From NCBI GenBank assembly GCA_937935995.1, contig CALGXF010000011.1:246-64245 (forward strand): 64,000 bases of DNA. The letters are read 5' to 3'. The stretch is from an uncultured Alphaproteobacteria bacterium. Its GTDB lineage: Bacteria > Pseudomonadota > Alphaproteobacteria > CAAHEQ01 > UBA3637. A model generated the notes under the pieces. That model was not told the DNA's origin and did no database searches. It saw only the letters and a program-made list of their open reading frames with translations. This document shows positions 31 to 28,968 of the stretch, in pieces; within the stretch, counting starts at the first letter, position 1, and the number at the start of each line of letters is the position of its first letter. The translations under genes were made by a program, and so were the position numbers.

Positions 31-504
31 ATGGTCAAGAAAAGCTGCCTTTTCCTTGATACCATCACCAATAAGATTGATACGAAAGGTCGCGTATCGA
101 TTCCCGCCGATTACCGCTCTATTTTAGACGAACGTCAAGTTGAATTGGTTCTTTATCGTTCTTTTTTGCATCCGTGTATCGAAGGATGTACCGCCGATTT
201 ACTGGAACACATGGCCGGAACGATTGACCAGACATTCGATACTTTTTCAAAAGAACAAGATGATTTGACGGCTTTAATTTTTGCCGACTCGAAAGTCTTT
301 GTCCCGGACAGCACCGGTCGTATTTCTTTAACGCCGAAATTATTATCCCATGCCCTGTTATCGGACAGTGCTGTTTTTGTCGGAAAAGGGAAAACTTTTC
401 AAATTTGGCAACCGGCTTTATGGGAAGATTCTTTGCTAAAGATTCGGCAAAGAGCTTTTCAAGAACCGTTGACATTATCCCGTAAAACGGAGGGGATCTC
501 ATGA
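31..504 (+). CDS. mraZ: Transcriptional regulator MraZ
   Basis: 157-aa ORF, first gene of the dcw cluster. Length and position upstream of rsmH are typical for MraZ. RBS-like aggggat before ATG. Confidence 0.85.
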   Translation: MVKKSCLFLDTITNKIDTKGRVSIPADYRSILDERQVELVLYRSFLHPCIEGCTADLLEHMAGTIDQTFDTFSKEQDDLTALIFADSKVFVPDSTGRISLTPKLLSHALLSDSAVFVGKGKTFQIWQPALWEDSLLKIRQRAFQEPLTLSRKTEGIS

Positions 505-1418
505 CGTCTCGGTCCCACATTCCCGTTTTATTGAAAGAAGTCATTGATGTTTTAGACATCCGACCAAACGGTATTTATGTAGACGGCACGTTCGGTGCAG
601 GCGGCTATACGGAAACGATTTTAAATGCAGCGCCCAACGTCCGTGTCTTTGCCATTGATCAAGACGAAACTGCCATCGCCGCCGGACAAAACTTGGTTCA
701 AAAATATGCACCACGCTTGACTTTAATTCATGGGCGGTTCGGCGATATGGCAAACTTAATTGACGAACCCGTCGACGGCATTGTGTTGGACATCGGCGTT
801 TCTTCCATGCAGATTGATCAGCCTCAACGCGGTTTTTCATTTCAAAAAGACGGGCCGCTGGATATGCGCATGGGACAAACGGGGCAAACGGCCGCCGATG
901 TTGTCAATACGTTTAAAGAATCTGACTTGGCCGATATTTTTTATGAATACGGAGAAGAAAAAGCCTCTCGTCGCATTGCCCGCAAAATTGTCGAGCGGCG
1001 CACACAGAAAAAATTTGAAAACACATTGGATTTAGCCGATGTCATCCGTTCCTGCCTGCCCCGAAAACCGGGTGAAATAGATGCGGCAACACGAACTTTT
1101 CAAGCGTTAAGAATTTACGTCAATGATGAATTGGGAGAATTAAAACGCGGGCTTCAGGGGGCTAAACGCCTGCTGAACCCAAATGGTATCTTGGCAGTTG
1201 TTTCGTTCCACTCTTTGGAAGACCGAATTGTTAAAAATTTTATGGCTCAAGAATCCGGACATATTCCGAACCCGTCTAAATACATGCCGGAAGTTCAAAA
1301 AAAAGCGCCGTCTTTCGAGATTTTGACGAAAAAACCGATAACACCGTCAGCGGCCGAATTATCTGACAACCCGCGGGCGCGGTCCAGTCGGCTCCGGGCG
1401 GCAAGGAGGTTGTCATGA
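501..1418 (+). CDS. rsmH: 16S rRNA (cytosine1402-N4)-methyltransferase RsmH/MraW
   Basis: 305 aa. SAM-MTase glycine motif DGTFGAGGYT. ATGA overlap with mraZ. Conserved position in dcw. Confidence 0.9.
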   Translation: MTSRSHIPVLLKEVIDVLDIRPNGIYVDGTFGAGGYTETILNAAPNVRVFAIDQDETAIAAGQNLVQKYAPRLTLIHGRFGDMANLIDEPVDGIVLDIGVSSMQIDQPQRGFSFQKDGPLDMRMGQTGQTAADVVNTFKESDLADIFYEYGEEKASRRIARKIVERRTQKKFENTLDLADVIRSCLPRKPGEIDAATRTFQALRIYVNDELGELKRGLQGAKRLLNPNGILAVVSFHSLEDRIVKNFMAQESGHIPNPSKYMPEVQKKAPSFEILTKKPITPSAAELSDNPRARSSRLRAARRLS

Positions 1419-1747
1419 AACGATTTTTGTTTAATTGTTTCTTCCTGCTCTGTGCTTTGATTGCGTGTGCCGGTATGTTCATTTTAAAATATCAGGTGCT
1501 GGACAAAGAAGAACAATTGACGGCCTTACAACGCCAAATCATTCAAAATCAACGCACTATCCATGTTTTAAAAGCAGAATGGACCCATTTGAACGACCCG
1601 CAAAGAATCCGTTTGTTAATTGCCGGACATACTCGTTTGGATGTGATTAAGCCGTCTCAAATCATTCAATTGGAAGACGTTGCTTTTAAAGAAGCGCCTT
1701 TACCCGGTCGCAAGCCGGAAATTATTCCCGCAGCCTACGAGGAATAA
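1415..1747 (+). CDS. ftsL: Cell division protein FtsL (small bitopic membrane protein)
   Basis: 110 aa with an N-terminal TM segment then a coiled-coil-like region. Located between rsmH and ftsI. RBS ggagg. Confidence 0.7.
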   Translation: MKRFLFNCFFLLCALIACAGMFILKYQVLDKEEQLTALQRQIIQNQRTIHVLKAEWTHLNDPQRIRLLIAGHTRLDVIKPSQIIQLEDVAFKEAPLPGRKPEIIPAAYEE

Positions 1748-1749
1748 AC

Positions 1750-3483
1750 ATGCTGCGCCGCAAAAAGACTCCTTATTACTACGTCGGTCAGGAAATCCCG
1801 ACTTCATCCAACGATCGGTATCGTTTTTTAGATAAAACAACCGTCAGCGCATTAAAAACCGGCCGGTTTCGGATGCTGTTGGTTGCTTATTTGTTTTTAA
1901 TCGCCTTTGCCGTTTTAAGTGTTCGACTGTTTGAACAAACCATCTTAAAGAAAAATACCTCGCGCCCCCAACACAGCATGCTTGTTGCCGGAGACTTGCC
2001 GGTCAATCGTGCCGATATTGTGGATCGCAACGGCACGATTTTGGCAACCAGCCTGCCAACCGTCGATTTATATGTGGATGCACGCGATATTTCAAACCCG
2101 GAACAAATGGCGCGCGACATCTTAAAAATTCTGCCGACACTGGACAAAGAAGATTTATTGGAAAAATTAAAATCACAATCCAGTTTTAAATACTTAAAAC
2201 GGAACCTGACGCCCAAAGAACAATATGCCATCAACCGGCTGGGGTATCCGCAACTGAATTTTACCGACGGCGAACAACGCATTTATCCGCAAAGCCATTT
2301 ATTTTCCCATATCATCGGCCTTACCAACATTGACAACAAAGGCATTGCCGGTCTTGAAATGGCCTTTCATCAACGATTAACGACAGACAAACACCCTTTA
2401 CAGCTTTCCGTAGACACCGGCGTTCAAAACATTATCCGGTACGAACTGACCAAAGCCATGGATACATTCAGCGCTTCCGCCGGAGCCGCTCTTGTCATGA
2501 ATGCGCAAAACGGTGAAATCATTGCTTTAACGTCTTTACCTGATTTTGATCCGAATCGACCGTCCACACGAACAGATTATAATATTTTTAACCGAGCAAC
2601 TTTGGGGTTATACGAAGTCGGCTCTGTCATGAAACCGTTCACGGTTGCAATGGGTTTGGAAACGGGTTTAATTACGCCCAATGACCGAGTAGATGCCACC
2701 AAACCGCTTCGTTTGGGACGCTTTACCGTGACGGACTTTCAAGGGAAAAACCGATTTTTAACCATTCCGGAAGTGCTGATTTATTCATCCAATATCGGTT
2801 CGGCCAAAATCGGCATGGCTGTGGGCGTAGACGAGCAAAAAGCCTTTTTGGAAAGATTTGGATTATTGTCTGTTGTCCCGTGTGAACTGCCTGAACGCGG
2901 TCGGCCGATTCAACCGGATGTTTGGCGAGAAGTCAACGGAGCGACTATTTCTTACGGATACGGCATTGCGGTCTCTCCATTGCACATGGCAACCGCTGTC
3001 AGTGCTTTGGTTAACGGCGGATTATATCGGCCGCCGACTTTTTTGAAAAACGGAAACAAAGACACGCCGGCCACGCAAATTATTTCACCGAAAACGTCTC
3101 AAATCTTAAGACACATGATGCGCGCCGTCATTGATATCGGTTCCGGTAAACGCGCAAACATCAAAGGGTATCTGGTGGGCGGCAAAACCGGATCCGCCGA
3201 AATGCAGGATTTACACGGCCGATATATCAAAGGGACACTTCGCACATCGTTTGTCGGTGCTTTTCCGATGGACAATCCGCAATATGTTTTGTATGTTATG
3301 TTGGAAAACCCGAAAAAACGAAAGGAAGATTGGTACTTTAATACAGCCGGGTGGAACGCTGCCCCGACAGGCGGTGCCATGATTGAAGCCATCGCGCCTC
3401 ATTTAGGCGTTACACCCAAAGAAGAGCTTGAAAAGCCCTCCTATATTGAAGTAGCTTATGAACAGTATAAACCCAAAAAATAG
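1750..3483 (+). CDS. ftsI: Peptidoglycan D,D-transpeptidase FtsI (PBP3)
   Basis: 577 aa. N-terminal TM. SVMKP-like active-site region (GSVMKPF), SSN and KTG motifs (YSSNIG, GGKTGSAE) of class B PBPs. Confidence 0.9.
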   Translation: MLRRKKTPYYYVGQEIPTSSNDRYRFLDKTTVSALKTGRFRMLLVAYLFLIAFAVLSVRLFEQTILKKNTSRPQHSMLVAGDLPVNRADIVDRNGTILATSLPTVDLYVDARDISNPEQMARDILKILPTLDKEDLLEKLKSQSSFKYLKRNLTPKEQYAINRLGYPQLNFTDGEQRIYPQSHLFSHIIGLTNIDNKGIAGLEMAFHQRLTTDKHPLQLSVDTGVQNIIRYELTKAMDTFSASAGAALVMNAQNGEIIALTSLPDFDPNRPSTRTDYNIFNRATLGLYEVGSVMKPFTVAMGLETGLITPNDRVDATKPLRLGRFTVTDFQGKNRFLTIPEVLIYSSNIGSAKIGMAVGVDEQKAFLERFGLLSVVPCELPERGRPIQPDVWREVNGATISYGYGIAVSPLHMATAVSALVNGGLYRPPTFLKNGNKDTPATQIISPKTSQILRHMMRAVIDIGSGKRANIKGYLVGGKTGSAEMQDLHGRYIKGTLRTSFVGAFPMDNPQYVLYVMLENPKKRKEDWYFNTAGWNAAPTGGAMIEAIAPHLGVTPKEELEKPSYIEVAYEQYKPKK

Positions 3484-3493
3484 GACATATCGA

Positions 3494-6313
3494 ATGCGCT
3501 TATCAGAACTTTTTCACTTTGCAAAAATCGCTCTTCCCATTGAAAACGATGTCGAAATTCAAGGATTAGCACGCGATTCTCGGGAAGTCAAACCCGGTTA
3601 TTTGTTTGCCGCCATGGACGGGTATCAAGGCAGCGGCATCGATTATGTCAATGAAGCCGTTCAAAACGGTGCTGTGGCTGTTTTAACGAACCACCCCAGT
3701 TTGGAAACAAGTGTCCCTGTTTACTATGTCGACCATATTCGCGAAGCGCTGGCCTTGATGAGCGTCGGTTTTTACCAACCACACCCGCAACACTTGGCTG
3801 CCGTCACGGGAACAAACGGCAAAACGTCGACTGTTTTCTTTTTGCGGCAAATTTGGGAATACGCCGGACATAAAAGCGCCAGTTTAGGTACGCTCGGCGT
3901 TCAGTCCGAAGGATACATACATTACAGCGGCATGACCACCTCTGCCAGCGTAACATTAAATCAGGAATTACAAGCTGTGGCACAAACCGGTGTCACACAT
4001 GCTGCTTTGGAAGCATCCAGCCACGGACTGGATCAACATCGTTTGGACGGGTTGACATTCGAAGCAACAGCTTTTACAAATCTGACTCGTGATCATTTGG
4101 ACTACCATAAAACGATGGAAAATTATCTGAAAGCCAAAATGCGGCTTTTCACGGATTTAACGGCCGAAGGCGGAACTGTTGTTTTAAACGCCGACATTCC
4201 GGAATTTGACAGAATGGATAAAACGTGTCGTTTTCACGGATTAAAAGTATTATCTTACGGACAAAACGGCCAAGCATTGCGATTGGTAAAACAAACACTC
4301 CATGAAGCCGGACAAGATTTAACCGTCAACATCCTTGGTAAAACTTATGACATAAAACTGCCGGTTGCCGGCGCTTTTCAAGGCATGAATATTTTATGTG
4401 CTTTAGGTTTGGCCATCGGAACGGGTATCCCTGCCGAAACGGCCGTACAGGCACTTCAAACCATCAAAGCACCTGACGGACGAATGGAATTGGTCGGCCG
4501 GACACAGGAAGGAGCCAGTATTTTTGTTGATTATGCGCATACACCGGACGGATTGGAAACGGCGTTAAAATCATTGCGCCATCACACACAAAATAAATTG
4601 CATGTTTTATTCGGATGCGGCGGCAACCGAGACATTGGTAAACGGCCGATTATGGGAAAAATCGCCGGAGAATTGGCTGATGAAGTCATTGTGACGGACG
4701 ACAATCCCCGCTTTGAAGATGCGGCCGAAATCCGCCGCCAGATTTTATCGGCGGTTCCTCAAGCCACAGAAATTGACGACCGGGCAGTTGCCATTTACAC
4801 AGCCATCTCTCGGTTAAAGGCCGGCGATGTACTGCTTTTGGCCGGAAAAGGGCATGAAGAAGGCCAGCTGATTAACGGCATGATGTATACGTTTAATGAC
4901 CGGATTCAGGCTTTGTTAGCGTTAAAAGCATTAAAAGAAAAACCGCTGTGGACCAAACAGGAATTACAAGAAGCGACCGGCGGTATTTTGCCGGAAAATA
5001 TCCGGGCTTACGGCGTATCGATTGACACACGGTCATTACAACCGGGCGACCTTTTTATTGCCCTCAAAGGCGATAAACTGGACGGACACACGTATGTTGA
5101 ACAGGCCCTGAAAAAAGGAGCCGTTGCGGCCATCGTCGATCATCCGATGGTTATCCCCGATTCAGACAAGTTGTTGGTCGTTCCCGACACAGGCAAAGCT
5201 CTTTATCAAATGGCAACTTATGCCAAAAATGCAAGCAAAGCCATCCGCATCGGTATCACCGGCAGTTCCGGGAAAACAACGTCCAAAGAAATGCTTGTGC
5301 GCGCCCTTTCCACGCAAGGAAAAGTCCACGCAACCGCCGGCAATCTGAACAACGAATGGGGTGTTCCTTTAACATTGGCGCGTTTGCCGAAAGATGCCGA
5401 TTATGCCGTTATCGAAATGGGAATGAATCACGCGGGGGAATTAACACGCCTGTCTCAATTGGTGGAACCCAAAATCGTTCTCATAACAATGATTGGCTCT
5501 GCCCATCGGGAATTTTTCAAATCAGAAGAAGAAATTGCCGCCGCCAAATCCGAAATCTTTTCGCACATGATGCCGGATGGAACGGCTGTTTTGAATGCCG
5601 ATTCGCCGTTTTTTGATTTTTTGAAGCAAAAAGCGGATTCTTACGGTGTTCATTCCATTTTGTCTTTCGGGCAAAACAGTCAAGCGGACAGCCGTCTGAT
5701 TGATATGCAAACACAGGCCGGACGGACAACCGTTCAGGCAAACGTATCCGGCACGCTTTTGACTTTCACCATGAACCTGTGCGGATTGCACTTTGTTCAA
5801 AACGCTTTGGGCATATTAGCGGTTGTCGCCGCCGTTCAGGGCGATTTATCCAAAGCTGCCGACGGTCTGGCCGGCATGTCTGCCGTCAAAGGGCGCGGCG
5901 CTTTTATTCAAACCGTTTATCACGGAAAAGCCCTCACCGTTATTGATGATGCGTATAATGCCAATCCGTCTTCAATGGCAGCCTCTCTTTCCGTGCTGGG
6001 GACACAACCCGGCCGTAAAATTGCCGTTTTGGGAGATATGTTGGAATTGGGGGAATTCGCGGAAACTTTGCATACAAATTTAGCAGATAATTTGCTGGAA
6101 ATTCAAGTTGATAAAGTGTATGCTGTAGGCGAGATGATGAAAAAGCTTTATGAAAAACTGCCGCAAAATCAGCAAGGTGCTTGGGCCGAAAAAGCATCCG
6201 ACATTTTACCGGCGTTGGAAAAAGAGCTGCAATCCGGTGATACCGTTTTGGTCAAAGCGTCTAATGGCATAAAGCTTTATGAAATCGTCAAAGTCTTAAC
6301 AAGTGGGAATTAA
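3494..6313 (+). CDS. murE-murF: Fused UDP-MurNAc-tripeptide synthetase MurE / UDP-MurNAc-pentapeptide synthetase MurF (single 940-aa reading frame)
   Basis: The N half carries the MurE signature (GTNGKTST P-loop, DNPR motif). The frame runs without a stop or restart through ...FNDRIQALLALKALKEKPLWTKQELQEATGG... into a full MurF half with a second P-loop (GITGSSGKTTSKE). I checked the junction codons at about 4900-4960 directly and found no stop or start. Confidence 0.8.
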   Translation: MRLSELFHFAKIALPIENDVEIQGLARDSREVKPGYLFAAMDGYQGSGIDYVNEAVQNGAVAVLTNHPSLETSVPVYYVDHIREALALMSVGFYQPHPQHLAAVTGTNGKTSTVFFLRQIWEYAGHKSASLGTLGVQSEGYIHYSGMTTSASVTLNQELQAVAQTGVTHAALEASSHGLDQHRLDGLTFEATAFTNLTRDHLDYHKTMENYLKAKMRLFTDLTAEGGTVVLNADIPEFDRMDKTCRFHGLKVLSYGQNGQALRLVKQTLHEAGQDLTVNILGKTYDIKLPVAGAFQGMNILCALGLAIGTGIPAETAVQALQTIKAPDGRMELVGRTQEGASIFVDYAHTPDGLETALKSLRHHTQNKLHVLFGCGGNRDIGKRPIMGKIAGELADEVIVTDDNPRFEDAAEIRRQILSAVPQATEIDDRAVAIYTAISRLKAGDVLLLAGKGHEEGQLINGMMYTFNDRIQALLALKALKEKPLWTKQELQEATGGILPENIRAYGVSIDTRSLQPGDLFIALKGDKLDGHTYVEQALKKGAVAAIVDHPMVIPDSDKLLVVPDTGKALYQMATYAKNASKAIRIGITGSSGKTTSKEMLVRALSTQGKVHATAGNLNNEWGVPLTLARLPKDADYAVIEMGMNHAGELTRLSQLVEPKIVLITMIGSAHREFFKSEEEIAAAKSEIFSHMMPDGTAVLNADSPFFDFLKQKADSYGVHSILSFGQNSQADSRLIDMQTQAGRTTVQANVSGTLLTFTMNLCGLHFVQNALGILAVVAAVQGDLSKAADGLAGMSAVKGRGAFIQTVYHGKALTVIDDAYNANPSSMAASLSVLGTQPGRKIAVLGDMLELGEFAETLHTNLADNLLEIQVDKVYAVGEMMKKLYEKLPQNQQGAWAEKASDILPALEKELQSGDTVLVKASNGIKLYEIVKVLTSGN

Positions 6314-6314
6314 A

Positions 6315-7400
6315 ATGCTGTACTTATTGCTTTATCCTTTGGCCGAATACGTGAGTGTTTTCAATCTGTTGAAATACCAAACATTCCGAACGGGTGCAGC
6401 TATTTTAACATCATTAATGATTTGCTTTATTTTGGGGCCGTCGCTTATTCGGTTTTTGAAGAAAAAACAAGGAAAAGGTCAACCCATTCGTGATAACGGG
6501 CCCGAAACGCACAAGAAAAAAGAAGGCACCCCGACCATGGGCGGATTAATGATTTTAATTTCGTTGTTTTCTTCCGTCTTGTTGTGGGCAGACTTGCGTA
6601 ATCCGTATATCTGGATTGTCTTGTTTTTAACGGGAGCTTACGGCCTTTTGGGTTTTATTGACGATTACTTAAAAGTCATTAAACGTAACTACGCCGGTGT
6701 CTCCGGACATAAAAAATTATTTTGGCAATGTTTGACCGGCGCGATTGCCGTCTTTGCCGTTATGTGCTTCGAAACGCCTGAAATGGCGACACAACTGACC
6801 ATTCCGTTTTTCAAAAACTTTATGATTAATTTAGCGTGTTTTTATCTGGTTTTCGGCGTGCTTGTTGTCGTCGGCTCCTCAAATGCCGTTAACTTGACGG
6901 ACGGATTGGACGGATTGGTTTCCGTGCCGTTGATTATGGCCAACTTGGTCTTTTTGGTTATTGCGTATGTTGCCGGGAACCATATTTTTGCCAATTATTT
7001 ACAAATTCATTATATTCCGGGTATCGGTGAATTGGCTATTTTTTGCGGTGCCGTTATCGGGGCTGTTTTAGGCTTTTTATGGTTCAACGCCCCGCCGGCC
7101 GAAATCTTTATGGGAGACACCGGATCTTTGGCTTTGGGCGGCGCTTTAGGCACACTGGCTGTCGCGACCAAACACGAATTGGTATTGGCCATTGTCGGCG
7201 GTTTATTTGTGGTTGAAGCGTTATCGGATATTCTTCAGGTCAGTTCTTATAAGATGCGTAAAAAACGTGTATTCCTCATGGCGCCGATTCATCACCATTT
7301 TGAAAAAAAAGGCTGGCCGGAAACGCGCGTCGTGGTGCGGTTTTGGATTATTTCCATTGTTTTGGCTCTTATCGGGTTATCAACATTGAAGATTCGTTAA
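6315..7400 (+). CDS. mraY: Phospho-N-acetylmuramoyl-pentapeptide transferase MraY
   Basis: Polytopic membrane protein whose N-terminus MLYLLLYPLAEY... resembles the MraY N-terminus. The ORF-track start at 6303 is GTG, so I prefer the ATG at 6315. Conserved dcw position. Confidence 0.85.
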   Translation: MLYLLLYPLAEYVSVFNLLKYQTFRTGAAILTSLMICFILGPSLIRFLKKKQGKGQPIRDNGPETHKKKEGTPTMGGLMILISLFSSVLLWADLRNPYIWIVLFLTGAYGLLGFIDDYLKVIKRNYAGVSGHKKLFWQCLTGAIAVFAVMCFETPEMATQLTIPFFKNFMINLACFYLVFGVLVVVGSSNAVNLTDGLDGLVSVPLIMANLVFLVIAYVAGNHIFANYLQIHYIPGIGELAIFCGAVIGAVLGFLWFNAPPAEIFMGDTGSLALGGALGTLAVATKHELVLAIVGGLFVVEALSDILQVSSYKMRKKRVFLMAPIHHHFEKKGWPETRVVVRFWIISIVLALIGLSTLKIR

Positions 7401-7401
7401 A

Positions 7402-8541
7402 ATGAAAGGTATGCTTCCCTCTTTGCAACAAGTTCGCTTCTTTCTGGCCGAGTGGTGGCGTACCTTGGACAGATGGTTATTGTGGTCGATTTTTGCTTTA
7501 ATCGTTTGCGGCATTTTTTTAACTTTCTCGGCAAGCCCTGCCGTGGCCGAACGTATTTTAAAAACAAAAGACACATTTTACTTTGTTAAACGCCAGTTGT
7601 TCTTTTTAGTCCCCTCTGTTGTCTTGATGCTGGGCGTATCCATGTTAAATCCCAAACAAATCCGCCGGATTGCCGGGATTGTGTTTATCATATCCTTTGG
7701 CATGCTTGTCATGACATTGTTTGCCGGCATGGAAGTCAAAGGCGCCAAAAGATGGCTGTATTTTCCGGGATTTTCCATTCAACCGTCCGAATTCATGAAA
7801 CCGGCTTTTGCCGTCGTCTGCGCATGGATATTCGCATCCGGCCGCTTAATTGATAAATTCCCGGGTGTTCGCATTGCCGGGTGCCTTTATTTCATTGTGG
7901 TCACTTTATTATTGCTTCAACCCGACGTCGGTATGACCATTACGGTCAGCTCCATTTGGGGATGTCAGTTGTTTTTGGCCGGTATTTCCATTTTATGGGT
8001 GATTATTTTAGGGGCTTTGGGCATTTTGGCTTTTCTCGGGGCTTACTTTGTTTTTCCGCATGTTCAAAGCCGGATTGACCGTTTTTTAAATCCGGAAACC
8101 GGCGATGTTTTCCAAGTCAAAACGTCTTTGGAAGCTTTTCATAACGGCGGATGGTTCGGGCGTGGCCCGGGTGAAGGCATCATCAAAGGGAAACTGCCCG
8201 ACGCCCACACGGATTTTATTTTAGCCGTCGCGGCGGAAGAATTCGGATTTTTTCTGTGTGCCGGCCTGATTTTCTTATTCGCATTTATTTTGTGGCGCGG
8301 CTTTTGGGTCATGAGCAAAGAAAAAAATCTGTTTAATATGCTCGCCGTTGCTGGACTTTTAACGCAATTTGGTGTACAAGCATTCATAAATATGGCGTCA
8401 ACCTTAAATCTTATTCCGACAAAAGGGATGACTTTGCCGTTTATTTCATACGGTGGTTCTTCTTTATTGTCGTTAGCATTCGGGTTCGGCATCATTTTAT
8501 CGTTAACCAGACGACATCCGACTCAAGGAGGATTGGAATGA
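7402..8541 (+). CDS. ftsW: Peptidoglycan glycosyltransferase / lipid II flippase FtsW (SEDS family)
   Basis: 379-aa polytopic membrane protein of the SEDS family. It starts 2 nt after the mraY stop, leaving no room for murD. Confidence 0.85.
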   Translation: MKGMLPSLQQVRFFLAEWWRTLDRWLLWSIFALIVCGIFLTFSASPAVAERILKTKDTFYFVKRQLFFLVPSVVLMLGVSMLNPKQIRRIAGIVFIISFGMLVMTLFAGMEVKGAKRWLYFPGFSIQPSEFMKPAFAVVCAWIFASGRLIDKFPGVRIAGCLYFIVVTLLLLQPDVGMTITVSSIWGCQLFLAGISILWVIILGALGILAFLGAYFVFPHVQSRIDRFLNPETGDVFQVKTSLEAFHNGGWFGRGPGEGIIKGKLPDAHTDFILAVAAEEFGFFLCAGLIFLFAFILWRGFWVMSKEKNLFNMLAVAGLLTQFGVQAFINMASTLNLIPTKGMTLPFISYGGSSLLSLAFGFGIILSLTRRHPTQGGLE

Positions 8542-9638
8542 AGAAAAAATTGATTGTACTGACAACCGGCGGGTCGGGCGGACACGTTTTTCCGGCTGAG
8601 GCTTTTGCAACGGCCATCAAAAACAAAGATTATGAATTAGCTTTCATCACCGATAAACGCATTCAAACTAAAATTCAAGGGACATTGGCAACTTTACCTG
8701 TTCACTACGTTGCTGCCGAAGCCGTCACCGGCAAAGGCATTTTCAAAAAAATCATAGCAGCTTTTAAATTATTATGGGGAACGACGCAATCTGTTTATCT
8801 GTTGACGAAATTAAAACCGTCTTTAGTCATCGGATTTGGCGGATACGCTTCTTTGCCGGCAGCACTGGCTGCTCAATTTTTAAACATTCCCGTTATCTTG
8901 CATGAACAAAATGCGATTTTAGGCCGTGCCAACCGATTGCTGGCGCGACGTACCAAATTAATTGCAACATCGTTTACACCGACGACGCTCATCCCCGAAG
9001 GAATTAAAACCCAGCAAACCGGCATGCCCGTCCGACCGGCGATTTTGGAGAAAATCGGAACACCGTACCCGACAGATACAACCGAATTCAGATTACTTGT
9101 CATGGGCGGCAGTCAAGGAGCTAAAATTTTTGCTTCCGTCATTCCGGCGGCGTTAAATTTATTGTCTCCGGATTTAAAAGCCAAACTTGTGTTGCATCAG
9201 CAAGTTCGTGCCGAAAATATGGAACAAGTTCAAGAAGCTTATCGTAACAGCGGCATTAAAAGCATTACTTTATCACCATTTTTCACGGACGTGCCGGCTT
9301 TGCTGGCCGATGCCCATCTGGTCATTTCCAGATCTGGTTCCTCCTCTTTGGCTGAATTTTCGGCATTAGGTAAACCGGCTTTGCTTATCCCGCTGCCTAC
9401 ATCCGCCGATGACCATCAAACCGCCAACGCGCGCGTATTTACGGCAAACGGTAGCGGATGGCTGATGATTGAAAAAGATTTCACGCCCGAAAAATTAGCG
9501 GCTCGATTAACGGAACTGATGGAAAATCCTGCCATTTTAAAACGAGCTTCCGATTGCGCCCTGCAAACGGCACAGACTAATGCGGCCGGCGCTTTGACAG
9601 AAGCCGTAGAAAAGGTGATTAAAAAGGAAAAATCATGA
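8538..9638 (+). CDS. murG: UDP-GlcNAc:MurNAc-(pentapeptide)-PP-undecaprenol GlcNAc transferase MurG
   Basis: 366 aa. GT28 N-terminal GGSGGHVFPA motif. Overlaps the ftsW stop. RBS ggagg. Confidence 0.9.
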   Translation: MKKKLIVLTTGGSGGHVFPAEAFATAIKNKDYELAFITDKRIQTKIQGTLATLPVHYVAAEAVTGKGIFKKIIAAFKLLWGTTQSVYLLTKLKPSLVIGFGGYASLPAALAAQFLNIPVILHEQNAILGRANRLLARRTKLIATSFTPTTLIPEGIKTQQTGMPVRPAILEKIGTPYPTDTTEFRLLVMGGSQGAKIFASVIPAALNLLSPDLKAKLVLHQQVRAENMEQVQEAYRNSGIKSITLSPFFTDVPALLADAHLVISRSGSSSLAEFSALGKPALLIPLPTSADDHQTANARVFTANGSGWLMIEKDFTPEKLAARLTELMENPAILKRASDCALQTAQTNAAGALTEAVEKVIKKEKS

Positions 9639-11023
9639 TTTATTTTAAAGACAAAACGATTCATTTTATCGGAATTGGCGGCATCGGCATGAGCGCGATT
9701 GCCGAATCGTTGCACTATATGGGCATCCGGGTTCAAGGATCGAATAACATTGAAAATGCCAACTGTGACCGACTGCGGCAAAAAGGAATTCCCGTTTTCA
9801 TCGGACATACGGATTTTTCGCATTTGGATAAAGTCGACGCAGCCATCATTTCTTCGGCCATTCAACCGGACAATCCGGAATTGACGGAAGTCCGCCGTCG
9901 GGGTATTCCAGTTGGTCATCGGGCTGAAATGCTGGCCGAACTGTTGCGGTACAAAAAAGGCATTGCCGTCAGCGGAACGCACGGCAAAACAACAACAACC
10001 GCAATGATTTCGGAAATGTTGAAAATGGCCGGCTTGGATCCGAGTTTCATTATCGGCGGCATTGTTAACTCTCAAGCCAGTAATGCACGACAAGGTAAAA
10101 GCGAATGGATGGTTGTTGAAGCCGATGAATCGGACGGCAGCTTTTTAAAACTGCCGAAAACCGTTTCCGTTGTCACAAATATCGATCCGGAACACATGGA
10201 TTATTACGGTTCTTTTGACAATATGAAAAATGCTTATCAATTTTTTATGGAAACAACGGCTTTTTACGGATTTGTCTGTGCCTGTTCCGATCATCCGGTT
10301 GTCAAAGAAATTGTTTCCAAAATTAAAACGCGGCGTGTTTTAACATATGGGTTTCAAGAAAATGCACGGTTGCAGGCCATTCATGTTCGCGTGATGCCGG
10401 GTCAGCTTTTATTTGATGTCCGATTGGGTGACACCGTTTATGACGGGTTTGAGCTTAACATGTTCGGCCGGCATAATATTTTGAATGCGCTGGCGGCCTT
10501 GACCATCGGATTAGAATTAAATATTTCGATTGACGTGATGCGCCGGGCATTAGCCGAATTCGGCGGCGTTCAACGCCGTTTTACCAAAACGGGATGCAGT
10601 CACGGCATTACGGTTTATGATGATTATGCACATCATCCGGTTGAAATCGAAGCGGTATTAAAAGCGGCCAAAGAAGCAACACCCGGCCACAAAGTCGTTG
10701 CTTTGTTTCAACCACATCGGTATTCGCGGGCATTGGACTTGGCGGATGAATTCGCCACTTGTTTTAAGGACGCTGATACGGTCATCGTGGCAGATATTTA
10801 TGCGGCCGGAGAAAAACCTCTGCCGACAATCAGCAAAGATATCTTGGTTCAAAAAATCAAAGCCGCCGGTCATCCGTCGGTTTATGCTTTGGATTCTTGT
10901 CAAACGCTGCCGTCTTTTGTATTGGATCATGTTTCAAACGGCGATGTTGTTATCGGACTCGGGGCCGGAGACATTTCAAAATGGATGCATGACCTGCCCC
11001 GCCAACTGGATAAAATGGAGTAA
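9635..11023 (+). CDS. murC: UDP-N-acetylmuramate--L-alanine ligase MurC
   Basis: 462 aa. Mur ligase P-loop GTHGKTTTT and the N-terminal Rossmann motif FIGIGGIGMSA. Confidence 0.9.
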   Translation: MIYFKDKTIHFIGIGGIGMSAIAESLHYMGIRVQGSNNIENANCDRLRQKGIPVFIGHTDFSHLDKVDAAIISSAIQPDNPELTEVRRRGIPVGHRAEMLAELLRYKKGIAVSGTHGKTTTTAMISEMLKMAGLDPSFIIGGIVNSQASNARQGKSEWMVVEADESDGSFLKLPKTVSVVTNIDPEHMDYYGSFDNMKNAYQFFMETTAFYGFVCACSDHPVVKEIVSKIKTRRVLTYGFQENARLQAIHVRVMPGQLLFDVRLGDTVYDGFELNMFGRHNILNALAALTIGLELNISIDVMRRALAEFGGVQRRFTKTGCSHGITVYDDYAHHPVEIEAVLKAAKEATPGHKVVALFQPHRYSRALDLADEFATCFKDADTVIVADIYAAGEKPLPTISKDILVQKIKAAGHPSVYALDSCQTLPSFVLDHVSNGDVVIGLGAGDISKWMHDLPRQLDKME

Positions 11024-11025
11024 CG

Positions 11026-11964
11026 ATGTTTGAGGCTTTAAAGAAAAAATGGATGCGCCGAACGGTCGCAATGCAAATGCCCAAAACGAAGGCGGAAATC
11101 CGCCGGAATGTTATTTTGGCAAAAAAAACATGGCTCGGTGTCGGCGGCCCGGCCGAATTTTATTTCGAACCGGCCGATGAAAAAGATTTGGCTCGATTTA
11201 TTAAAAATAAACCGGCAATGCCGATGACAGTTTTGGGCGGCGGTTCCAATGTATTGATTCGCGAAAACGGTATCCCGGGTATTGTCATTCATTTGGGTAA
11301 AAGCTTTACAAATTACACCATTAAAGAAGACATTATTTCATGTGATGCCGGTCTATTGACGATTGATTTATCCAAGATTGCCCAAAAAAACGGCTTATCC
11401 GGATTTGAATTTTTATCCGGCATTCCGGGTTCCGTCGGCGGTGCTTTACGGATGAACGCCGGCGCTTACGGATCCGAAATCAAAGATATTTTGGTTTCCA
11501 TTCGGGCAGTAGACGGAAACGGAACAATCCATGAATTTGAACCACAATCGGATTTTTTCAAATACAGAAAAAATGCTCTGCCCGAAGACTGGATTTTTAC
11601 GGGGGCTTCTTTCCGCGGCATCAAAAAAAATCCGCAGGAAATTTTACAAACCATGCTGGATTTCAAGAAAAAACGCGAAACCAGCCAACCTATCGGCGTT
11701 AAAACCTGCGGCTCGACATTTAAAAACCCGGACGGATTAAAAGCGTGGAAGTTGATTGAAAAAGCCGGTTGTCGCGGTTTAAAAAAAGGCGATGCTCAAA
11801 TGTCGGACAAACATTGCAACTTTTTGGTCAATACCGGCAAAGCAACGGCCAAAGAATTAGAAGACTTGGGAGAGGAAGTCCGTCAAAAAGTATTCAAAAA
11901 ATGTGGCGTTCTGTTGGATTGGGAAGTGAAGCGGCTCGGCATAAAGGAGGAGATTGACGAATGA
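11026..11964 (+). CDS. murB: UDP-N-acetylenolpyruvoylglucosamine reductase MurB
   Basis: 312 aa FAD-binding (PCMH) fold with GGGSN. murB between murC and ddl is the alphaproteobacterial arrangement. Confidence 0.85.
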   Translation: MFEALKKKWMRRTVAMQMPKTKAEIRRNVILAKKTWLGVGGPAEFYFEPADEKDLARFIKNKPAMPMTVLGGGSNVLIRENGIPGIVIHLGKSFTNYTIKEDIISCDAGLLTIDLSKIAQKNGLSGFEFLSGIPGSVGGALRMNAGAYGSEIKDILVSIRAVDGNGTIHEFEPQSDFFKYRKNALPEDWIFTGASFRGIKKNPQEILQTMLDFKKKRETSQPIGVKTCGSTFKNPDGLKAWKLIEKAGCRGLKKGDAQMSDKHCNFLVNTGKATAKELEDLGEEVRQKVFKKCGVLLDWEVKRLGIKEEIDE

Positions 11965-12881
11965 AAAAAGTAGCGGTTGTCGTCGGCGGAACATCTTCGG
12001 AAAGAGAAATTTCATTGCTTTCCGGACAAGGCGTTTTTAACGCGCTGAAAGCCAAAGGATACCCGGTTGTTTTGATAGACTTAAAAGAAGACTTGGTTGC
12101 TTTTATTCGCGAACTGAAGTCCCAAAATCCGGATGTTATTTTTAATGCTTTGCACGGCCGGTTCGGAGAAGACGGTAACATTCAAGGTGTTTTTAATCTC
12201 ATGCGCATTCCGTACACGCATTCGGGATGTCTGGCTTCGGCGTTGGCAATGGATAAAAAAATGACCAAACGTCTTTTAAAAGACGCCGGTATTCCGATGG
12301 CGGCCGATAAAATGGTAACGCTTGAAGATATCCGCAAAGGAGATACGTTGCCTTTCCCGTATGTGATTAAACCCAACAACGAAGGCTCTTCCGTCGGCGT
12401 TTCAATTATCGAAAGCCAAACGGATGAAGATTATTTAATAAACAGTTGGCCTTTTGGGGAAGCCCCTGTTTTAATGGAAGAATACATTAAAGGGCGGGAA
12501 ATGAGTGTCCCCGTATTGGGCAACCAAGCCATCGGTATTGTTGAAATTGCGCCGAAAACGGGATTTTACACATACGAGAACAAATACACGGAAGGGAAAA
12601 CGGATCACATCATTCCGGCACCGTTACCGGCCGAACAGACTCAAATTTTAAAAGCGTATGCACTCAAAGCACATCAAATTTTGGGGTGCCGCGGTGTCTC
12701 CCGGTCTGATTTCAGATATGATGACACAGATCCGGAACATCCGAAAATCGCTTTTTTAGAGATAAATACGCAACCCGGCATGACACCATTGTCTTTATTG
12801 CCGGAAGTTGCGAAAAAGGCTGGTATTTCTTATGAAGATGTCGTATCTTATTTGGTAGAGGATGCTGCATGCGAAGAATAA
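11961..12881 (+). CDS. ddl: D-alanine--D-alanine ligase
   Basis: 306 aa ATP-grasp. N-terminal KVAVVVGGTSSEREISL and EGSSVG motifs. Confidence 0.9.
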   Translation: MKKVAVVVGGTSSEREISLLSGQGVFNALKAKGYPVVLIDLKEDLVAFIRELKSQNPDVIFNALHGRFGEDGNIQGVFNLMRIPYTHSGCLASALAMDKKMTKRLLKDAGIPMAADKMVTLEDIRKGDTLPFPYVIKPNNEGSSVGVSIIESQTDEDYLINSWPFGEAPVLMEEYIKGREMSVPVLGNQAIGIVEIAPKTGFYTYENKYTEGKTDHIIPAPLPAEQTQILKAYALKAHQILGCRGVSRSDFRYDDTDPEHPKIAFLEINTQPGMTPLSLLPEVAKKAGISYEDVVSYLVEDAACEE

Positions 12882-13729
12882 AAAAAACGAAAAAGAAATC
12901 AGGGATGACTGTCCGCAATACACTGCACCGGATTATCCGGCTGGTTTACCTTTTTGTTTTTCTGATTCTCGCTGCTTTACTGATTTACGGCTTTCATTCC
13001 GGATTTTTTCAACAGAAAAAAGAATCCTTTGAAAACGGCTTTCATGAAACAATGCAAAACGCCGGCTTTGCCGTAACAGACATTTTCATTGACGGCCGCG
13101 TACGCACGCCTTTATCTGACATCAAAAAAGCATTACATGTTCGGCAAGGCATGCCGATGACACAAGTCGATATGCAGGAAATTTTCGATAATCTGTCTCG
13201 GTTGCCATGGGTTAAACATGTCCAAATTCACCGCCAATTACCGAATTTGTTATATGTCCGGCTTATGGAAAAAAATCCGATTGCTTTGTGGCAAAAAGAC
13301 GGCAAACATCATCCGATTGACGAAGACGGCCGCGTGATTAATACATCGGCGGACGGATTGGAATATTTGGTCATTACGGTCGGAGACGATGCTCCGGAAC
13401 ATGCGCCCGAATTAATGAACGAAATTGCCAAGTATAAAGAACTGGCGCGACGCACCATGTCTGCCGTTCGAATTGGCGGCCGGCGATGGAATTTGATTTT
13501 AGACCATGTGACAAACGGTTTAATCATCGAGTTGCCCGAAGAAAATATCAGTGAAGCGCTTAAACGGCTGGACAGACTGGATGAAAAACATCATTTACTC
13601 AATCGCCAATTGTCTTTGATTGATTTAAGATTACCGGATCGGTTAATTGTTCAAACAATAGACAACAAACCGATTGAGTCGTTTAAACCCAAAAACCTGT
13701 TGCAAAAAGAGACCGAACAAGATGTCTGA
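12869..13729 (+). CDS. ftsQ: Cell division protein FtsQ
   Basis: 286 aa bitopic protein with a TM segment followed by a POTRA-like region. Conserved position before ftsA. Confidence 0.75.
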   Translation: MRRIKKTKKKSGMTVRNTLHRIIRLVYLFVFLILAALLIYGFHSGFFQQKKESFENGFHETMQNAGFAVTDIFIDGRVRTPLSDIKKALHVRQGMPMTQVDMQEIFDNLSRLPWVKHVQIHRQLPNLLYVRLMEKNPIALWQKDGKHHPIDEDGRVINTSADGLEYLVITVGDDAPEHAPELMNEIAKYKELARRTMSAVRIGGRRWNLILDHVTNGLIIELPEENISEALKRLDRLDEKHHLLNRQLSLIDLRLPDRLIVQTIDNKPIESFKPKNLLQKETEQDV

Positions 13730-14975
13730 TCCTATCATTAAAAACGGTTATTTAACGGCGCTAGACATCGGATCGACCAAAATCTGCTGTTTAATTGCGC
13801 GCATTTTATCAGACGGCTCTTTGCACATTGTCGGAGACGGATATGCGCAAGCCAAAGGCATCAAAAACGGTGTTATCACACACCTTGCGGATGCGGCGGC
13901 TTCCATTCAAGACGCAATCATGATGGCCGAAGAAAAAGCCGAACGGCGCGTCGAATCGGTTATTGTTAATATTTCTTCGACGGCTTTGAAATCCAGCTAT
14001 GTGGAAGCATCCATTGAATTGCCTGACAACCGTCCCGTTTCTTCCGGAGACGTTAAAAAATTAATTGACCAAGCGTTGCACAAAATTGACTTGACCGACC
14101 ATGAAGTCATTCATCAATTACCGATTTCTTACACCCTTGACGGTGAAGAAAATATTCAAGAACCGACGAATTTATATGGCCATCATTTAAGCGTTGTTTT
14201 GCATGTGATTTCGGTTCCGTTGACTCAATTGCGTAATTTAGTGATGGCTTTGGAAAGATGCCATGTATCGATTGCCGCCAAAGTGGCAACACCGTATGCT
14301 TCCGGTCTTTCCGTTTTATCGGATGAGGAAAAAGAAGTCGGCAGCACCGTTATTGACATCGGGGGTGGATTAACGTCCATCGGTATTTTCACGGAAGGAT
14401 TTATCCGGTACACGGCGATGTTGCCATTGGGGGCGCACCTTATTACCAAAGACATTGCTCAAATTTTAAAAACGCCGATACCGGATGCAGAGCGCATTAA
14501 AACGTTGTACGGCTGTGCTTTTTTATCGCCGCAAGATAAAAAGGAAACCATCAATATTCCGCTGATTGGCGAAAAGGATGATGGCGCTTTGCTCCAAATT
14601 TCACGGGCTGATTTAATTTCAATCATGATTCCCCGAATCGAAGAAATGTTGGAACTGACCGGTTCTTACCTGACAGCACAAGACGGATGCGATTTTGCGA
14701 CCCGCCGAGTCGTTTTAACCGGCGGTGCCAGTTTATTACAAGGGCTGCGCGAAAAAACAAACGCCTTGTTAGAAGCCCAAGTACGGCTCGGCAAACCGTT
14801 TGCAATCAACGGCTTGCCCGACACACCGCCGGGAGCCAGCTTCGCAACCTGCACGGGACTCTTGCGTTATGCGATAAATCGGCGTATACAGACTAATGAT
14901 AAAGAAAAAACAACAACCCCGACTTCAAACGGATTTTTAAGAAGGATGATAAGATGGCTGATGCAGAATTTCTAA
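13722..14975 (+). CDS. ftsA: Cell division protein FtsA
   Basis: Actin-fold ATPase with the [10 protein letters not shown] phosphate-1 motif. I placed the start at the ATG overlapping the ftsQ stop ([11 protein letters not shown]). The ORF-track start at 13674 lies inside ftsQ. Confidence 0.85.
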
Positions 14976-16486
14976 ACAAAGACACCGAAACAAATCTTTC
15001 CATCGGGCTGCCGGAACAAATGCCCGAAATTCTGTTAACACCCAACATCGGCGTCATCGGTGTCGGTGGAGCCGGCGGAAACGCTGTTAATAATATGATT
15101 GAATCTCATTTGGTCGGGGCTTCATTCATCGTTGCGAACACGGATGCTCAAGTGATGTCTAAATCTTTGACACATGAGCGCATTCAGTTGGGTTCTGTTT
15201 TAACGCAAGGATTAGGCGCCGGATCCAATCCGGAAATCGGGAAACAGGCGGCGGAAGAAAGCCACGATAAAATCAAAGAATCTTTAAAAGATTTGCATAT
15301 GCTCTTTATTGCGGCCGGCATGGGCGGCGGAACGGGAACCGGGGCGTCTCCGGTTATTGCCAGAATCGCCAAAGAAATGGGTATTTTGACTGTCGGCGTG
15401 GTTACAAAGCCGTTTCGATTGGAAGGCTCCAAACGCATGCGTGTTGCCGAAGCCGGCATCGAAGAATTGGCAAAATATGTTGACACGTTGATTATTATTC
15501 CCAATCAAAACTTGTTCAGAATTGCAAAAGAAAACACATCTTTTGTCGATGCATTTAAAATGGCTGATGACATTTTGTATCAAGGCGTACGCAGCATCAC
15601 CGATTTAATGATGACACCGATGTTGGTTAACTTGGACTTTGCCGACTTGAAAACTGTCATTTGCGAAATGGGTAAAGCGATGATGGGTTCCGGAGAAGCC
15701 GAAGGTGAAAACCGGGCATTAATTGCTGCGGAAAAAGCCATTTCAAATCCTTTGTTGGATGTGTCAATGAAAGGGGCAAAAGGTATTCTTATCAACATCT
15801 CCGGCGGTAGCGATTTGTCATTGATGGAAGTGGATGAAGCGGCTGAACGGATTCGCGAAGAAGTCGATGAAGATGCAAATATTATTTTCGGTGCCAGCTG
15901 TGATGAAACGTTGGCCGGTAAAATCCGAGTATCGGTTGTTGCCACCGGTTTATCCAGCGAAAACGAACAAAAACAAACTCAAGCGGCTTCTGTTTTAACG
16001 ATGGCGCCGGCTGAACCGATTGTGGTCACACCGCCGCAACCGATTGAACCCGCAGACGTTCCGACAGAATCATCTCCCGCGCCGGCAGAATCGGATATCG
16101 TTTTATCGCATATTTCATTAGAAACACCCATGCACGATATGCCGGTTTTGAATATCAATGAAGATGCGGAAACATTTATTCCCGAACCGGCAGCCGAAAT
16201 TGAAAAGCCTTTGGAAGAAGAGGAATTAGAAGAAGAAAATGACTTCATTCCCGAACCGGTCTCGTTGGTTTCGGAAAAAGAAGAACCGCAGCCCAAAAAA
16301 CGAAAATCTTTTTTAGGCGACGGCTTTTTACCCGGCATTTTCGGCGACAGATCTTCCTTTGAAACAACGGAAAAAGTGCGCCTGAAAAAAGAAAGCATCA
16401 AAACTCTTTTACCGGAAAAGGAATTGCCCCAAATCAACGAAGAAGATTTGGAAATCCCGTCTTTCCTGCGTCGCAAGAGCGAATAA
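14954..16486 (+). CDS. ftsZ: Cell division GTPase FtsZ with long acidic/proline-rich C-terminal linker
   Basis: Tubulin signature GGGTGTGA. N-terminal [18 protein letters not shown] ~150-aa disordered linker rich in E, P and S is followed by the conserved C-terminal peptide [10 protein letters not shown]. Confidence 0.95.
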
Positions 16487-21087: not shown

Positions 21088-23606
<2,519 letters not shown>

Positions 23607-23610
<4 letters not shown>

Positions 23611-28956: not shown

Positions 28957-28968
28957 AAGAGGTACAAA

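What the first reader, a model, noticed from the sequence alone, without database searches (positions are those of the whole stretch)
3494..8541. dcw cluster with an in-frame murE-murF fusion and no murD between mraY and ftsW
The MurE C-terminus (...GKGHEEGQLINGMMYTFNDRIQALLAL) continues without a stop, start or RBS into a complete MurF (KPLWTKQELQEATGG...), giving a 940-aa two-P-loop ligase. The ftsW ATG lies 2 nt after the mraY stop, so the murD gene that is almost universally located there is missing from the cluster. Every other dcw gene is present and tightly overlapping. A fused tripeptide and pentapeptide ligase plus a relocated or absent murD suggests remodelling of peptidoglycan precursor synthesis, for example by channelling.
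Basis: seen in the sequence. Interest (0 to 1): 0.5.

Follow-up and report, generated by a model that had tools for sequence, protein, structure and literature searches.

The report
Fused MurE-MurF ligase, murD outside cluster

Summary
Both parts of the observation are correct. A single ORF at 3494..6313 (939 aa) encodes a complete MurE followed in frame by a complete MurF. The ftsW ATG comes 1 nt after the mraY stop codon, and no third Mur ligase exists anywhere in the 64 kb window.

It is not an assembly error. Two independent assemblies of the same species (99% identical, no indels) and more than 120 full-length homologues (47-99% identity) keep the junction in frame. dN/dS at the junction is 0.08.

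Fusion and missing murD occur together in every lineage I sampled (9) of one clade of gut Alphaproteobacteria MAGs. Elsewhere the two traits occur separately.

MurE-MurF chimeras are the commonest known Mur fusion: NCBIfam has a model (NF008896), PDB 8F5D is a structure, and PMC10214165 surveys them. This one arose independently. It scores below the NF008896 cut-off and keeps the MurF N-terminal 'cap' that the Bordetella enzyme lacks.

dcw clusters without murD are also known, for example in most Clostridia.

I could not find where murD lies in this clade. Relocation is inferred, not shown. The 'remodelled pathway' or 'channelling' reading has no specific support.

Verdict: a new member of a known kind, of low interest. 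As a side finding, the same clade carries a conserved fusion of a truncated ATP-synthase delta subunit to the alpha subunit.

The parts
3494..6313 (+). murE-murF fused gene (939 aa plus stop), a bifunctional UDP-MurNAc-dipeptide:meso-DAP ligase and UDP-MurNAc-tripeptide:D-Ala-D-Ala ligase
3494..4924 (+). MurE module (aa 1-477). P-loop VTGTNGKT, DHLDYH...K motif and DDNPR meso-DAP motif. The last helix is ...NDRIQALLAL.
   Evidence: aligns to E. coli MurE 1E8C and to B. pertussis 8F5D residues 33-503
4925..5005 (+). Junction (aa 478-504, KALKEKPLWTKQELQEATGGILPENIRA). There is no stop, ATG or disordered linker. It contains the retained MurF N-terminal 'cap' helix (PLWT..EL..AT.G), which matches the N-termini of free-standing alphaproteobacterial MurF.
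5006..6313 (+). Remainder of the MurF module (aa 505-939): YGVSIDTR..., P-loop ITGSSGKTT, DDAYNANP
6315..7400 (+). mraY (361 aa). Its ATG lies 1 nt after the murEF stop.
7398..7404 (+). mraY stop (TAA), 1 nt, then ftsW ATG. This is the place where murD normally sits, and there is no room for a remnant.
7402..8541 (+). ftsW (379 aa)
31..3483 (+). Upstream dcw genes: mraZ (31-504), rsmH (501-1418), ftsL-like (1415-1747), ftsI (1750-3483)
8538..16486 (+). Downstream dcw genes: murG, murC (9635-11023), murB, ddl, ftsQ, ftsA, ftsZ

Best explanation
The window comes from an uncultured, gut-associated alphaproteobacterium (about 45% G+C). In its whole clade murE and murF have merged into one gene, and murD has been cleanly removed from the dcw operon.

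Origin of the fusion (inferred). Free-standing relatives have a murE stop that overlaps the murF start (..GCATGA..), with murF in the frame one nucleotide behind murE. A one-nucleotide insertion or a two-nucleotide deletion near that overlap would therefore join the two frames. The product keeps a complete MurE, about 5 bridging residues and a complete MurF, including MurF's N-terminal cap helix.

Function (inferred from orthodox family membership and invariant catalytic motifs; not assayed). The 939-aa protein adds meso-diaminopimelate and then D-Ala-D-Ala to UDP-MurNAc-L-Ala-D-Glu. The fusion guarantees 1:1 co-expression and permanent proximity of two consecutive enzymes.

murD (inferred, not shown). 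D-Glu addition is most probably done by a murD gene elsewhere in the genome.

The fusion and the murD excision are two separable events that both became fixed on the stem of this clade.
For: Reality of the fusion and selection on it:
- Independent assemblies of the same species carry it, with 0 indels.
- More than 120 full-length fused homologues exist, 924-950 aa and 47-99% identical, and the junction length is conserved to within 1 residue.
- dN/dS is 0.09 for the whole gene and 0.08 across the junction against an 80%-identical relative. Against the same-species Logan contig L081, 26 of 32 differences in murEF are synonymous.
- P-loops, the His/Lys catalytic positions and DNPR are invariant in 36 clade sequences.
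- The AlphaFold2 model has pLDDT 92.5 and pTM 0.81 with a structured junction. Its halves match solved MurE (TM 0.87) and MurF (TM 0.89).

Clade-wide pairing of the two traits:
- Window, L081/L082, L083, L084-87, L001, L002, L004, L172 and L173 all show murEF-mraY-ftsW with a gap of 20 nt or less, or an overlap.
- These loci group together in a neighbour-joining tree of five other dcw proteins, apart from 17 alphaproteobacterial loci with unfused genes.

Separability of the two traits:
- Betaproteobacterial loci L020, L022 and L043 are fused and keep murD.
- L133 and L088 are unfused and lack murD.

Origin: the ATGA overlap and the M..PLWT MurF N-termini are seen in relatives.

Intact peptidoglycan pathway in the window: murA, murB, murC, ddl, mraY, murG, ftsW, ftsI and PBP1a are all present.
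Against: - murD was not found. It is absent from the 64 kb window and from about 257 kb (with redundancy) of clade loci.
- Two database searches with MurD profiles returned only generic alphaproteobacterial MurDs. The five candidate representatives I looked up all lie in mraY/ftsW contexts.
- Relocation therefore rests on pathway logic alone.
- No enzymology or proteomics exists for this protein. Internal initiation or processing into two chains is not excluded.
- The tree is neighbour-joining without support values.
Confidence: 0.8

Rival explanations
1. The fusion is an assembly or sequencing artefact: a missed stop codon or a frameshift between separate murE and murF genes.
For: Unfused relatives have a 4-nt ATGA overlap, so a single-base error could mimic a fusion.
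Against: - Two other assemblies from different samples have the same junction with substitutions only (6 in 301 nt) and 0 gaps.
- More than 120 homologues down to 47% identity have the same in-frame junction.
- dN/dS at the junction is 0.08.
Confidence: 0.01
2. murD is truly absent from the genome. D-Glu (or another residue) is added at position 2 by a non-orthologous or highly divergent enzyme, so the stem-peptide pathway really is remodelled.
For: - No MurD lies in the window or in any clade locus examined.
- Profile searches did not surface a MurD that could be assigned to the clade.
Against: - Only a small fraction of any clade genome was visible, and the searches were not able to target the clade.
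- The MurE half is an orthodox MurE equivalog, whose substrate is UDP-MurNAc-L-Ala-D-Glu.
- All other peptidoglycan genes are intact and under selection.
- Lineages that lack murD in the dcw cluster, such as Clostridia, are described as rearranged, not murD-less (PMC8136486).
Confidence: 0.05
3. The fused ORF is transcribed as one unit but yields two separate proteins, either by internal translation initiation near the junction or by proteolysis. The fusion would then have no consequence at protein level.
For: An in-frame TTG codon exists in the ALLAL stretch. Nothing tested here excludes processing.
Against: - No ATG and no Shine-Dalgarno-like purine run precede the MurF part.
- The junction is conserved in length and is predicted to be structured (pLDDT 86-93 for residues 471-500), with no flexible linker.
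- The B. pertussis chimera is purified as one active polypeptide (PMC10214165).
Confidence: 0.05
4. The fusion was acquired by horizontal transfer from lineages already known to carry MurE-MurF chimeras (Bordetella-type Betaproteobacteria, or gut Clostridia with fused genes) rather than arising in place.
For: Fused genes occur in gut Clostridia MAGs that also lack murD (L008, L021, L026) and in Betaproteobacteria (L020, L022, L043).
Against: - Identity to those proteins is only 32-35%, against 43-49% to the unfused alphaproteobacterial MurE and MurF genes of the loci.
- The protein scores below the cut-off of the Bordetella-type model (878 < 1023) but above the cut-off of MurE model NF001124 and MurF model NF010693.
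- The retained MurF N-terminus (PLWT..E..AT.G) matches alphaproteobacterial MurF starts.
- Flanking dcw proteins give the same clade.
Confidence: 0.03

Closest known systems
Bordetella pertussis MurE-MurF chimera (PDB 8F5D; NCBIfam NF008896/PRK11929; Shirakawa et al. 2023, PMC10214165)
   Same: One polypeptide with MurE at the N-terminus and MurF at the C-terminus. It is linker-less and six-domain, is encoded at the murE-murF position of the dcw cluster, and has both P-loops and catalytic motifs. It is the best PDB sequence hit (388 bits, both halves aligned).
   Different: - It arose independently: about 33% identity, and it scores 878 bits against a cut-off of 1023 for NF008896.
- 27 residues, including the MurF 'cap' helix, lie between the MurE-homologous and MurF-homologous parts. 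8F5D has only 4 there, and its cap is replaced by the MurE C-terminus.
- The predicted relative orientation of the two halves does not superpose on 8F5D (TM 0.46, rmsd 16.6 A), although each half fits solved monomers. This is a prediction only.
- Betaproteobacterial loci with a fused gene (L020, L022, L043) keep murD after mraY, and this clade does not.
Linker-containing alphaproteobacterial MurE-MurF chimeras (Stappia, Pseudovibrio; PMC10214165)
   Same: Alphaproteobacterial MurE-MurF fusions with a complete MurF.
   Different: Those carry disordered linkers of 200-300 residues. Here only about 5 residues bridge the MurE C-terminal helix and the MurF N-terminus.
Canonical proteobacterial dcw cluster (mraZ-rsmH-ftsL-ftsI-murE-murF-mraY-murD-ftsW-murG-murC-murB-ddl-ftsQ-ftsA-ftsZ)
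   Same: Same genes, same order and the same tight packing. 15 of the 17 unfused alphaproteobacterial loci in the tree (and further unfused loci outside it) show the full order including murD.
   Different: murD is missing between mraY and ftsW, and murE and murF form one ORF.
Clostridial DCW1 cluster without murD (Garcia et al. 2021, PMC8136486)
   Same: mraY is followed directly by the ftsW/spoVE gene with no murD. Some gut Clostridia MAGs (L008, L021, L026) even combine this with a fused murE-murF.
   Different: A different phylum and an independent history. Those clusters, in the loci seen here, also lack murC and ddl and are otherwise split.

Membership tests
MurE-MurF bifunctional chimera (general class, PMC10214165) | A single ORF encoding complete MurE then complete MurF (two sets of Mur ligase N, M and C domains) | tested here: met
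   Pfam finds two stretches each of Mur_ligase, Mur_ligase_M and Mur_ligase_C. NCBIfam MurE and MurF models cover residues 28-493 and 494-948.
MurE-MurF bifunctional chimera (general class, PMC10214165) | The fusion is a conserved gene, not an error | tested here: met
   Independent assemblies carry it, more than 120 fused homologues exist, and dN/dS at the junction is 0.08.
MurE-MurF bifunctional chimera (general class, PMC10214165) | Both ligase activities reside in one polypeptide | not testable with these tools
   Only the catalytic motifs were checked (P-loops, His/Lys, DNPR), and they are invariant. No assay was possible.
Bordetella-type MurE/MurF equivalog (NCBIfam NF008896) | Score at or above the curated cut-off of 1023 bits | tested here: not met
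   878.5 bits.
Bordetella-type MurE/MurF equivalog (NCBIfam NF008896) | The MurF cap is absent and the MurE C-terminus covers the MurF hydrophobic patch | tested here: not met
   27 residues (478-504), including helix 488-495, are retained, against 4 residues in 8F5D.
MurE, meso-DAP-adding (NF001124 / TIGR01085) | Score above the cut-off, and a DNPR motif | tested here: met
   699 bits against 476, and 559 against 257. DDNPR is present and D, N and R are invariant in the clade.
MurF (TIGR01143 / NF010693) | Score above the cut-off | tested here: met
   552 bits against 289, and 547.3 against 544.
Canonical proteobacterial dcw cluster | murD between mraY and ftsW | tested here: not met
   A 1-nt spacer separates them, and there is no MurD hit in the window.
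Canonical proteobacterial dcw cluster | All other genes present in the canonical order | tested here: met
Complete cytoplasmic peptidoglycan pathway (MurA-F, Ddl, MraY, MurG) | MurD encoded somewhere in the genome | tested here: inconclusive
   It is not in the window or in about 257 kb of clade loci. Database searches could not be aimed at this clade.

The most novel reading that the evidence does not exclude
This whole clade of gut Alphaproteobacteria has lost murD altogether. Position 2 of the stem peptide would then be filled by a non-orthologous or unrecognisably divergent ligase, or the clade builds an altered stem peptide. The MurE-MurF fusion would be part of a re-organised precursor pathway.
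Probability: 0.04. Interest if true: 0.8.

Novelty: new member of a known kind. Interest (0 to 1): 0.2.

Why it matters
The finding adds an independently evolved, cap-retaining, linker-less MurE-MurF chimera from an abundant but uncultured clade of gut Alphaproteobacteria to a class of fusions that is already known. It also shows that fusing murE and murF and losing murD from the dcw operon are separable events. That bears mildly on the idea that dcw gene order reflects the assembly of a Mur enzyme complex: here the MurD step is encoded away from an otherwise intact operon. It would matter much more only if murD proved absent from these genomes. Together with the second conserved fusion (ATP-synthase delta fragment joined to alpha), it hints that this clade tends to fix fusions of neighbouring essential genes.

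Tried and rejected
1. Looking for murD in the window. I used six-frame phmmer with the window's MurC, MurE and MurF and a purpose-built MurD HMM. Only paralogue cross-hits came back.
2. Two ~470-aa ORFs without NCBIfam hits (32031..33449 and 37305..38738) were considered as a divergent MurD. Pfam shows an EGF-like-domain protein and a PilO pilus protein, so they were rejected.
3. The genome-contig scan with the fusion used species-specific peptide patterns. It did not retrieve the source species, but it did give comparative loci.
4. The metagenome-contig scan with the clade alignment fell back on generic motifs (VTGTNGKT, DYAHTPD). It returned mostly unrelated environmental loci and added nothing about where the clade keeps murD.
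5. A MurD profile search of the 5.8-billion-protein set and of the 50%-identity representatives returned generic alphaproteobacterial MurDs. Filtering by composition and by tree, one cluster look-up and five context look-ups (P0321, P0339, P0325, P0265) found only murD genes next to mraY and/or ftsW. No contig-length coincidence linked these hits to clade contigs.
6. Horizontal transfer from Clostridia or Betaproteobacteria was rejected on identity and model scores.
7. L090, a 55% hit at 45% G+C, turned out to be a lone MurE in an unrelated context.
Full report
**Observation**

The window opens with a complete dcw cluster on the + strand. It contains mraZ (31-504), rsmH, a 110-aa FtsL-like gene, ftsI (1750-3483), one long ORF, mraY, ftsW (7402-8541), murG, murC, murB, ddl, ftsQ, ftsA and ftsZ (to 16486).

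The long ORF is open from 3458 to 6313. ATG 3494, 10 nt after the ftsI stop, is the start used in gene calls of relatives and gives 939 aa.

Pfam finds two full sets of Mur-ligase domains in it. NCBIfam assigns residues 28-493 to MurE (NF001124, 699 bits against a cut-off of 476). It assigns residues 494-948 to MurF (TIGR01143, 552 bits against 289; NF010693, 547 bits against 544).

The junction reads ...FNDRIQALLALKALKEKPLWTKQELQEATGG... with no stop and no ATG. mraY (ATG 6315) ends with TAA at 7398-7400, and the ftsW ATG is at 7402.

No third Mur ligase exists anywhere in the 64 kb. I checked with six-frame phmmer using the window's own ligases, and with a MurD HMM built from 36 murD genes that sit between mraY and ftsW in other loci. 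Both hit only the fusion (169 bits) and murC (144 bits), whereas genuine MurDs score at least 428 bits.

**Not an artefact**

A Logan contig (SRR31227708) and an ENA contig (ERZ25299746) from other samples are 98.95% and 99.09% identical to the window over 16.3 kb and 5.6 kb. Both have zero gaps, and both carry the same fusion and the same mraY-ftsW junction.

The protein search returned more than 120 full-length fused homologues of 924-950 aa and 47-99% identity. Those that carry a name are labelled 'MAG: Alphaproteobacteria bacterium'. In an alignment of 36 of them the junction varies in sequence but by at most one residue in length. The two P-loops, the DHLDYH...K and H...K catalytic positions and the DNPR motif are invariant.

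Against an 80%-identical relative, dN/dS is 0.09 for the whole gene and 0.08 for codons 456-516.

**Distribution**

Every member of this group whose context I could read has murEF-mraY-ftsW with an intergenic spacer of 20 nt or less, or an overlap. There is no murD remnant. These members are the window, L081/L082, L083 (80% identity), L084-87 (58%, Hadza gut), L172 and L173 (about 49%, human gut), and L001, L002 (horse faeces) and L004.

In a neighbour-joining tree of FtsI, MraY, FtsW, MurG and MurC, the fused loci that had all five proteins (window, L081, L083, L084, L001, L004) form one group. They stand apart from 17 alphaproteobacterial loci with separate murE and murF, 15 of which carry murD in the usual place (no support values).

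The two traits are separable. Betaproteobacterial loci L020, L022 and L043 are fused but keep murD. Alphaproteobacterial loci L133 and L088 have separate genes but no murD. Many gut Clostridia loci lack murD after mraY, and three of those (L008, L021, L026) also have a fused murEF.

The literature agrees. The DCW1 cluster of most Clostridia is listed without murD (PMC8136486). Lineage-specific absences of individual dcw genes are described as common (PMC8871954).

**How the fusion arose and what it looks like**

In unfused alphaproteobacterial relatives the murE stop overlaps the murF start (..GCATGA..), with murF in the frame one nucleotide behind murE. MurF there begins M-(2-6 residues)-PLWT..E...AT.G.

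The window protein runs from the MurE C-terminal helix through about five residues (KALKEK) straight into PLWTKQELQEATGG. A one-nucleotide insertion or a two-nucleotide deletion at the overlap is enough to explain this. This step is inferred.

The AlphaFold2 model, built on the clade alignment, is confident (pLDDT 92.5, pTM 0.81). It shows a structured junction, with helix 469-481 belonging to MurE and helix 488-495 being the MurF cap. Each half superposes on solved MurE (1E8C, TM 0.87) and MurF (4QF5, TM 0.89).

**Comparison with what is known**

[quoted passage not shown] It is reported in alpha-, beta-, gamma- and delta-proteobacteria, both with and without linkers. The B. pertussis enzyme has been purified and solved as 8F5D (PMC10214165). 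NCBIfam has an equivalog model for it, NF008896.

The window protein is the same kind of object but not the same lineage.
- It scores 878 bits against a cut-off of 1023 for NF008896.
- It is about 33% identical to 8F5D.
- It has 27 residues, including the MurF cap, where 8F5D has 4. In Bordetella the cap is missing and the MurE C-terminus takes its place.
- The predicted arrangement of the two halves does not superpose globally on 8F5D (TM 0.46, rmsd 16.6 A over 817 columns). This is a prediction, and Mur ligases are flexible.

The paper already describes linker-less chimeras in which the MurE C-terminus abuts the MurF N-terminus. I therefore file this as a new member of a known kind.

**Mechanism**

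*Shown.* There is one conserved ORF under purifying selection. Both halves are orthodox MurE and MurF with intact catalytic motifs. The operon around them is intact and tightly packed. The window also holds murA (46918-48195, minus strand) and a class A PBP (50986-53466).

*Inferred.* The protein adds meso-DAP and then D-Ala-D-Ala to UDP-MurNAc-L-Ala-D-Glu. The fusion fixes 1:1 stoichiometry and proximity. Channelling is not supported by anything specific. Even in 8F5D the two sites are about 50 A apart, and channelling is offered there only as a possibility.

**murD: relocated or lost?**

I could not locate murD.
- It is absent from the window and from about 257 kb (redundant) of clade loci.
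- A MurD profile search of the 5.8-billion-protein set returned generic Rhodospirillales- and Kiloniellales-like MurDs. A search of the 50%-identity representatives did the same.
- Four representatives chosen by composition and tree position all sit next to mraY and/or ftsW, so they are not from this clade.

Relocation is therefore an inference. It rests on the orthodox MurE, whose substrate needs D-Glu, on the intact pathway, and on precedent in other lineages. I put true loss at about 4-5%. The decisive test is a MurD HMM search of complete clade MAGs (GCA_965350215.1, JAZLAQ01, JAKSVT01, JAZRDB01).

**Side finding**

ORF 23607..25430 on the minus strand (604-607 aa) is a full ATP-synthase alpha subunit. 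It is preceded in frame by about 95 residues that match only the C-terminal part of the delta/OSCP subunit (profile positions 102-172 of 172). The next upstream gene is unrelated.

This architecture is conserved in about 85 protein clusters of 591-631 aa and 52-100% identity. Several lie on the same contigs as the murEF relatives, and it is reproduced in three assemblies of this species. It may deserve its own evaluation.

**Verdict**

The object is a real, clade-wide, independently evolved MurE-MurF chimera in a dcw operon that lacks murD. Both features have precedents. Interest is low (0.2) unless murD proves absent from these genomes.

Noticed in passing
window 23607-25430 (- strand); relatives P0410-P0497; loci L174-L176: The ATP-synthase alpha subunit carries an in-frame N-terminal extension of about 95 aa that matches only the C-terminal part of the delta/OSCP subunit (Pfam PF00213 positions 102-172). 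No separate atpH lies upstream, and the delta N-terminal domain is not in this ORF. The fusion is conserved in about 85 clusters (591-631 aa, 52-100% identity) from the same clade of gut Alphaproteobacteria, and it is reproduced in three independent assemblies. A few longer forms also carry an ATP-synt_B domain (P0495, 762 aa).
   Followed up: partly
window 22537-23610 (- strand): The ATP-synthase gamma subunit is 357 aa, yet residues 4-356 span only 283 positions of the 285-position Pfam profile. This implies an insertion of about 70 residues.
   Followed up: no
window 32031-42606 (- strand): A type IVb / Tcp-like pilus cluster: TcpQ-domain protein, secretin, PilO-like accessory protein, T2SSE ATPase and T2SSF platform. 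It also holds a 472-aa protein with an EGF-like motif, and two ORFs within the cluster (36428..37330 and 41407..42606) have no Pfam hit. A 467-aa protein with a prepilin N-methylation motif lies at 59396-60799.
   Followed up: no
window 43608-46073 (+); L172 3382-5823: A lone VirB4/TrbE-like ATPase (821 aa) has no obvious type IV secretion partners nearby. A similar 813-aa gene lies just upstream of the dcw cluster in the distant clade member L172.
   Followed up: no
L008, L021, L026 (gut Clostridia / Lachnospirales / Oscillospiraceae MAGs): These Bacillota loci also combine a fused murE-murF ORF with mraY directly followed by ftsW and no murD. The same pair of traits has therefore arisen outside the Alphaproteobacteria.
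   Followed up: partly
L133 (UOEJ01000138.1) and L088 (PJTZ01000130.1): These alphaproteobacteria-like loci have separate murE and murF but no murD between mraY and ftsW. In L133 mraY and ftsW overlap. They are independent cases of murD leaving the cluster without any fusion.
   Followed up: partly
L031 (uncultured Micavibrio) and L177 (Logan SRR33155360): These dcw clusters go ftsI-murE-mraY-murD with no murF between murE and mraY. In L031 a MurF-like ORF lies on the opposite strand at the end of the locus.
   Followed up: no
window 28171-30681 (+) and 17730-18308 (+): Three sizeable ORFs (261, 570 and 192 aa) have no Pfam hit. In one strain (L174) the 570-aa gene is called as two genes of 388 and 145 aa, which suggests strain-level disruption.
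   Followed up: no
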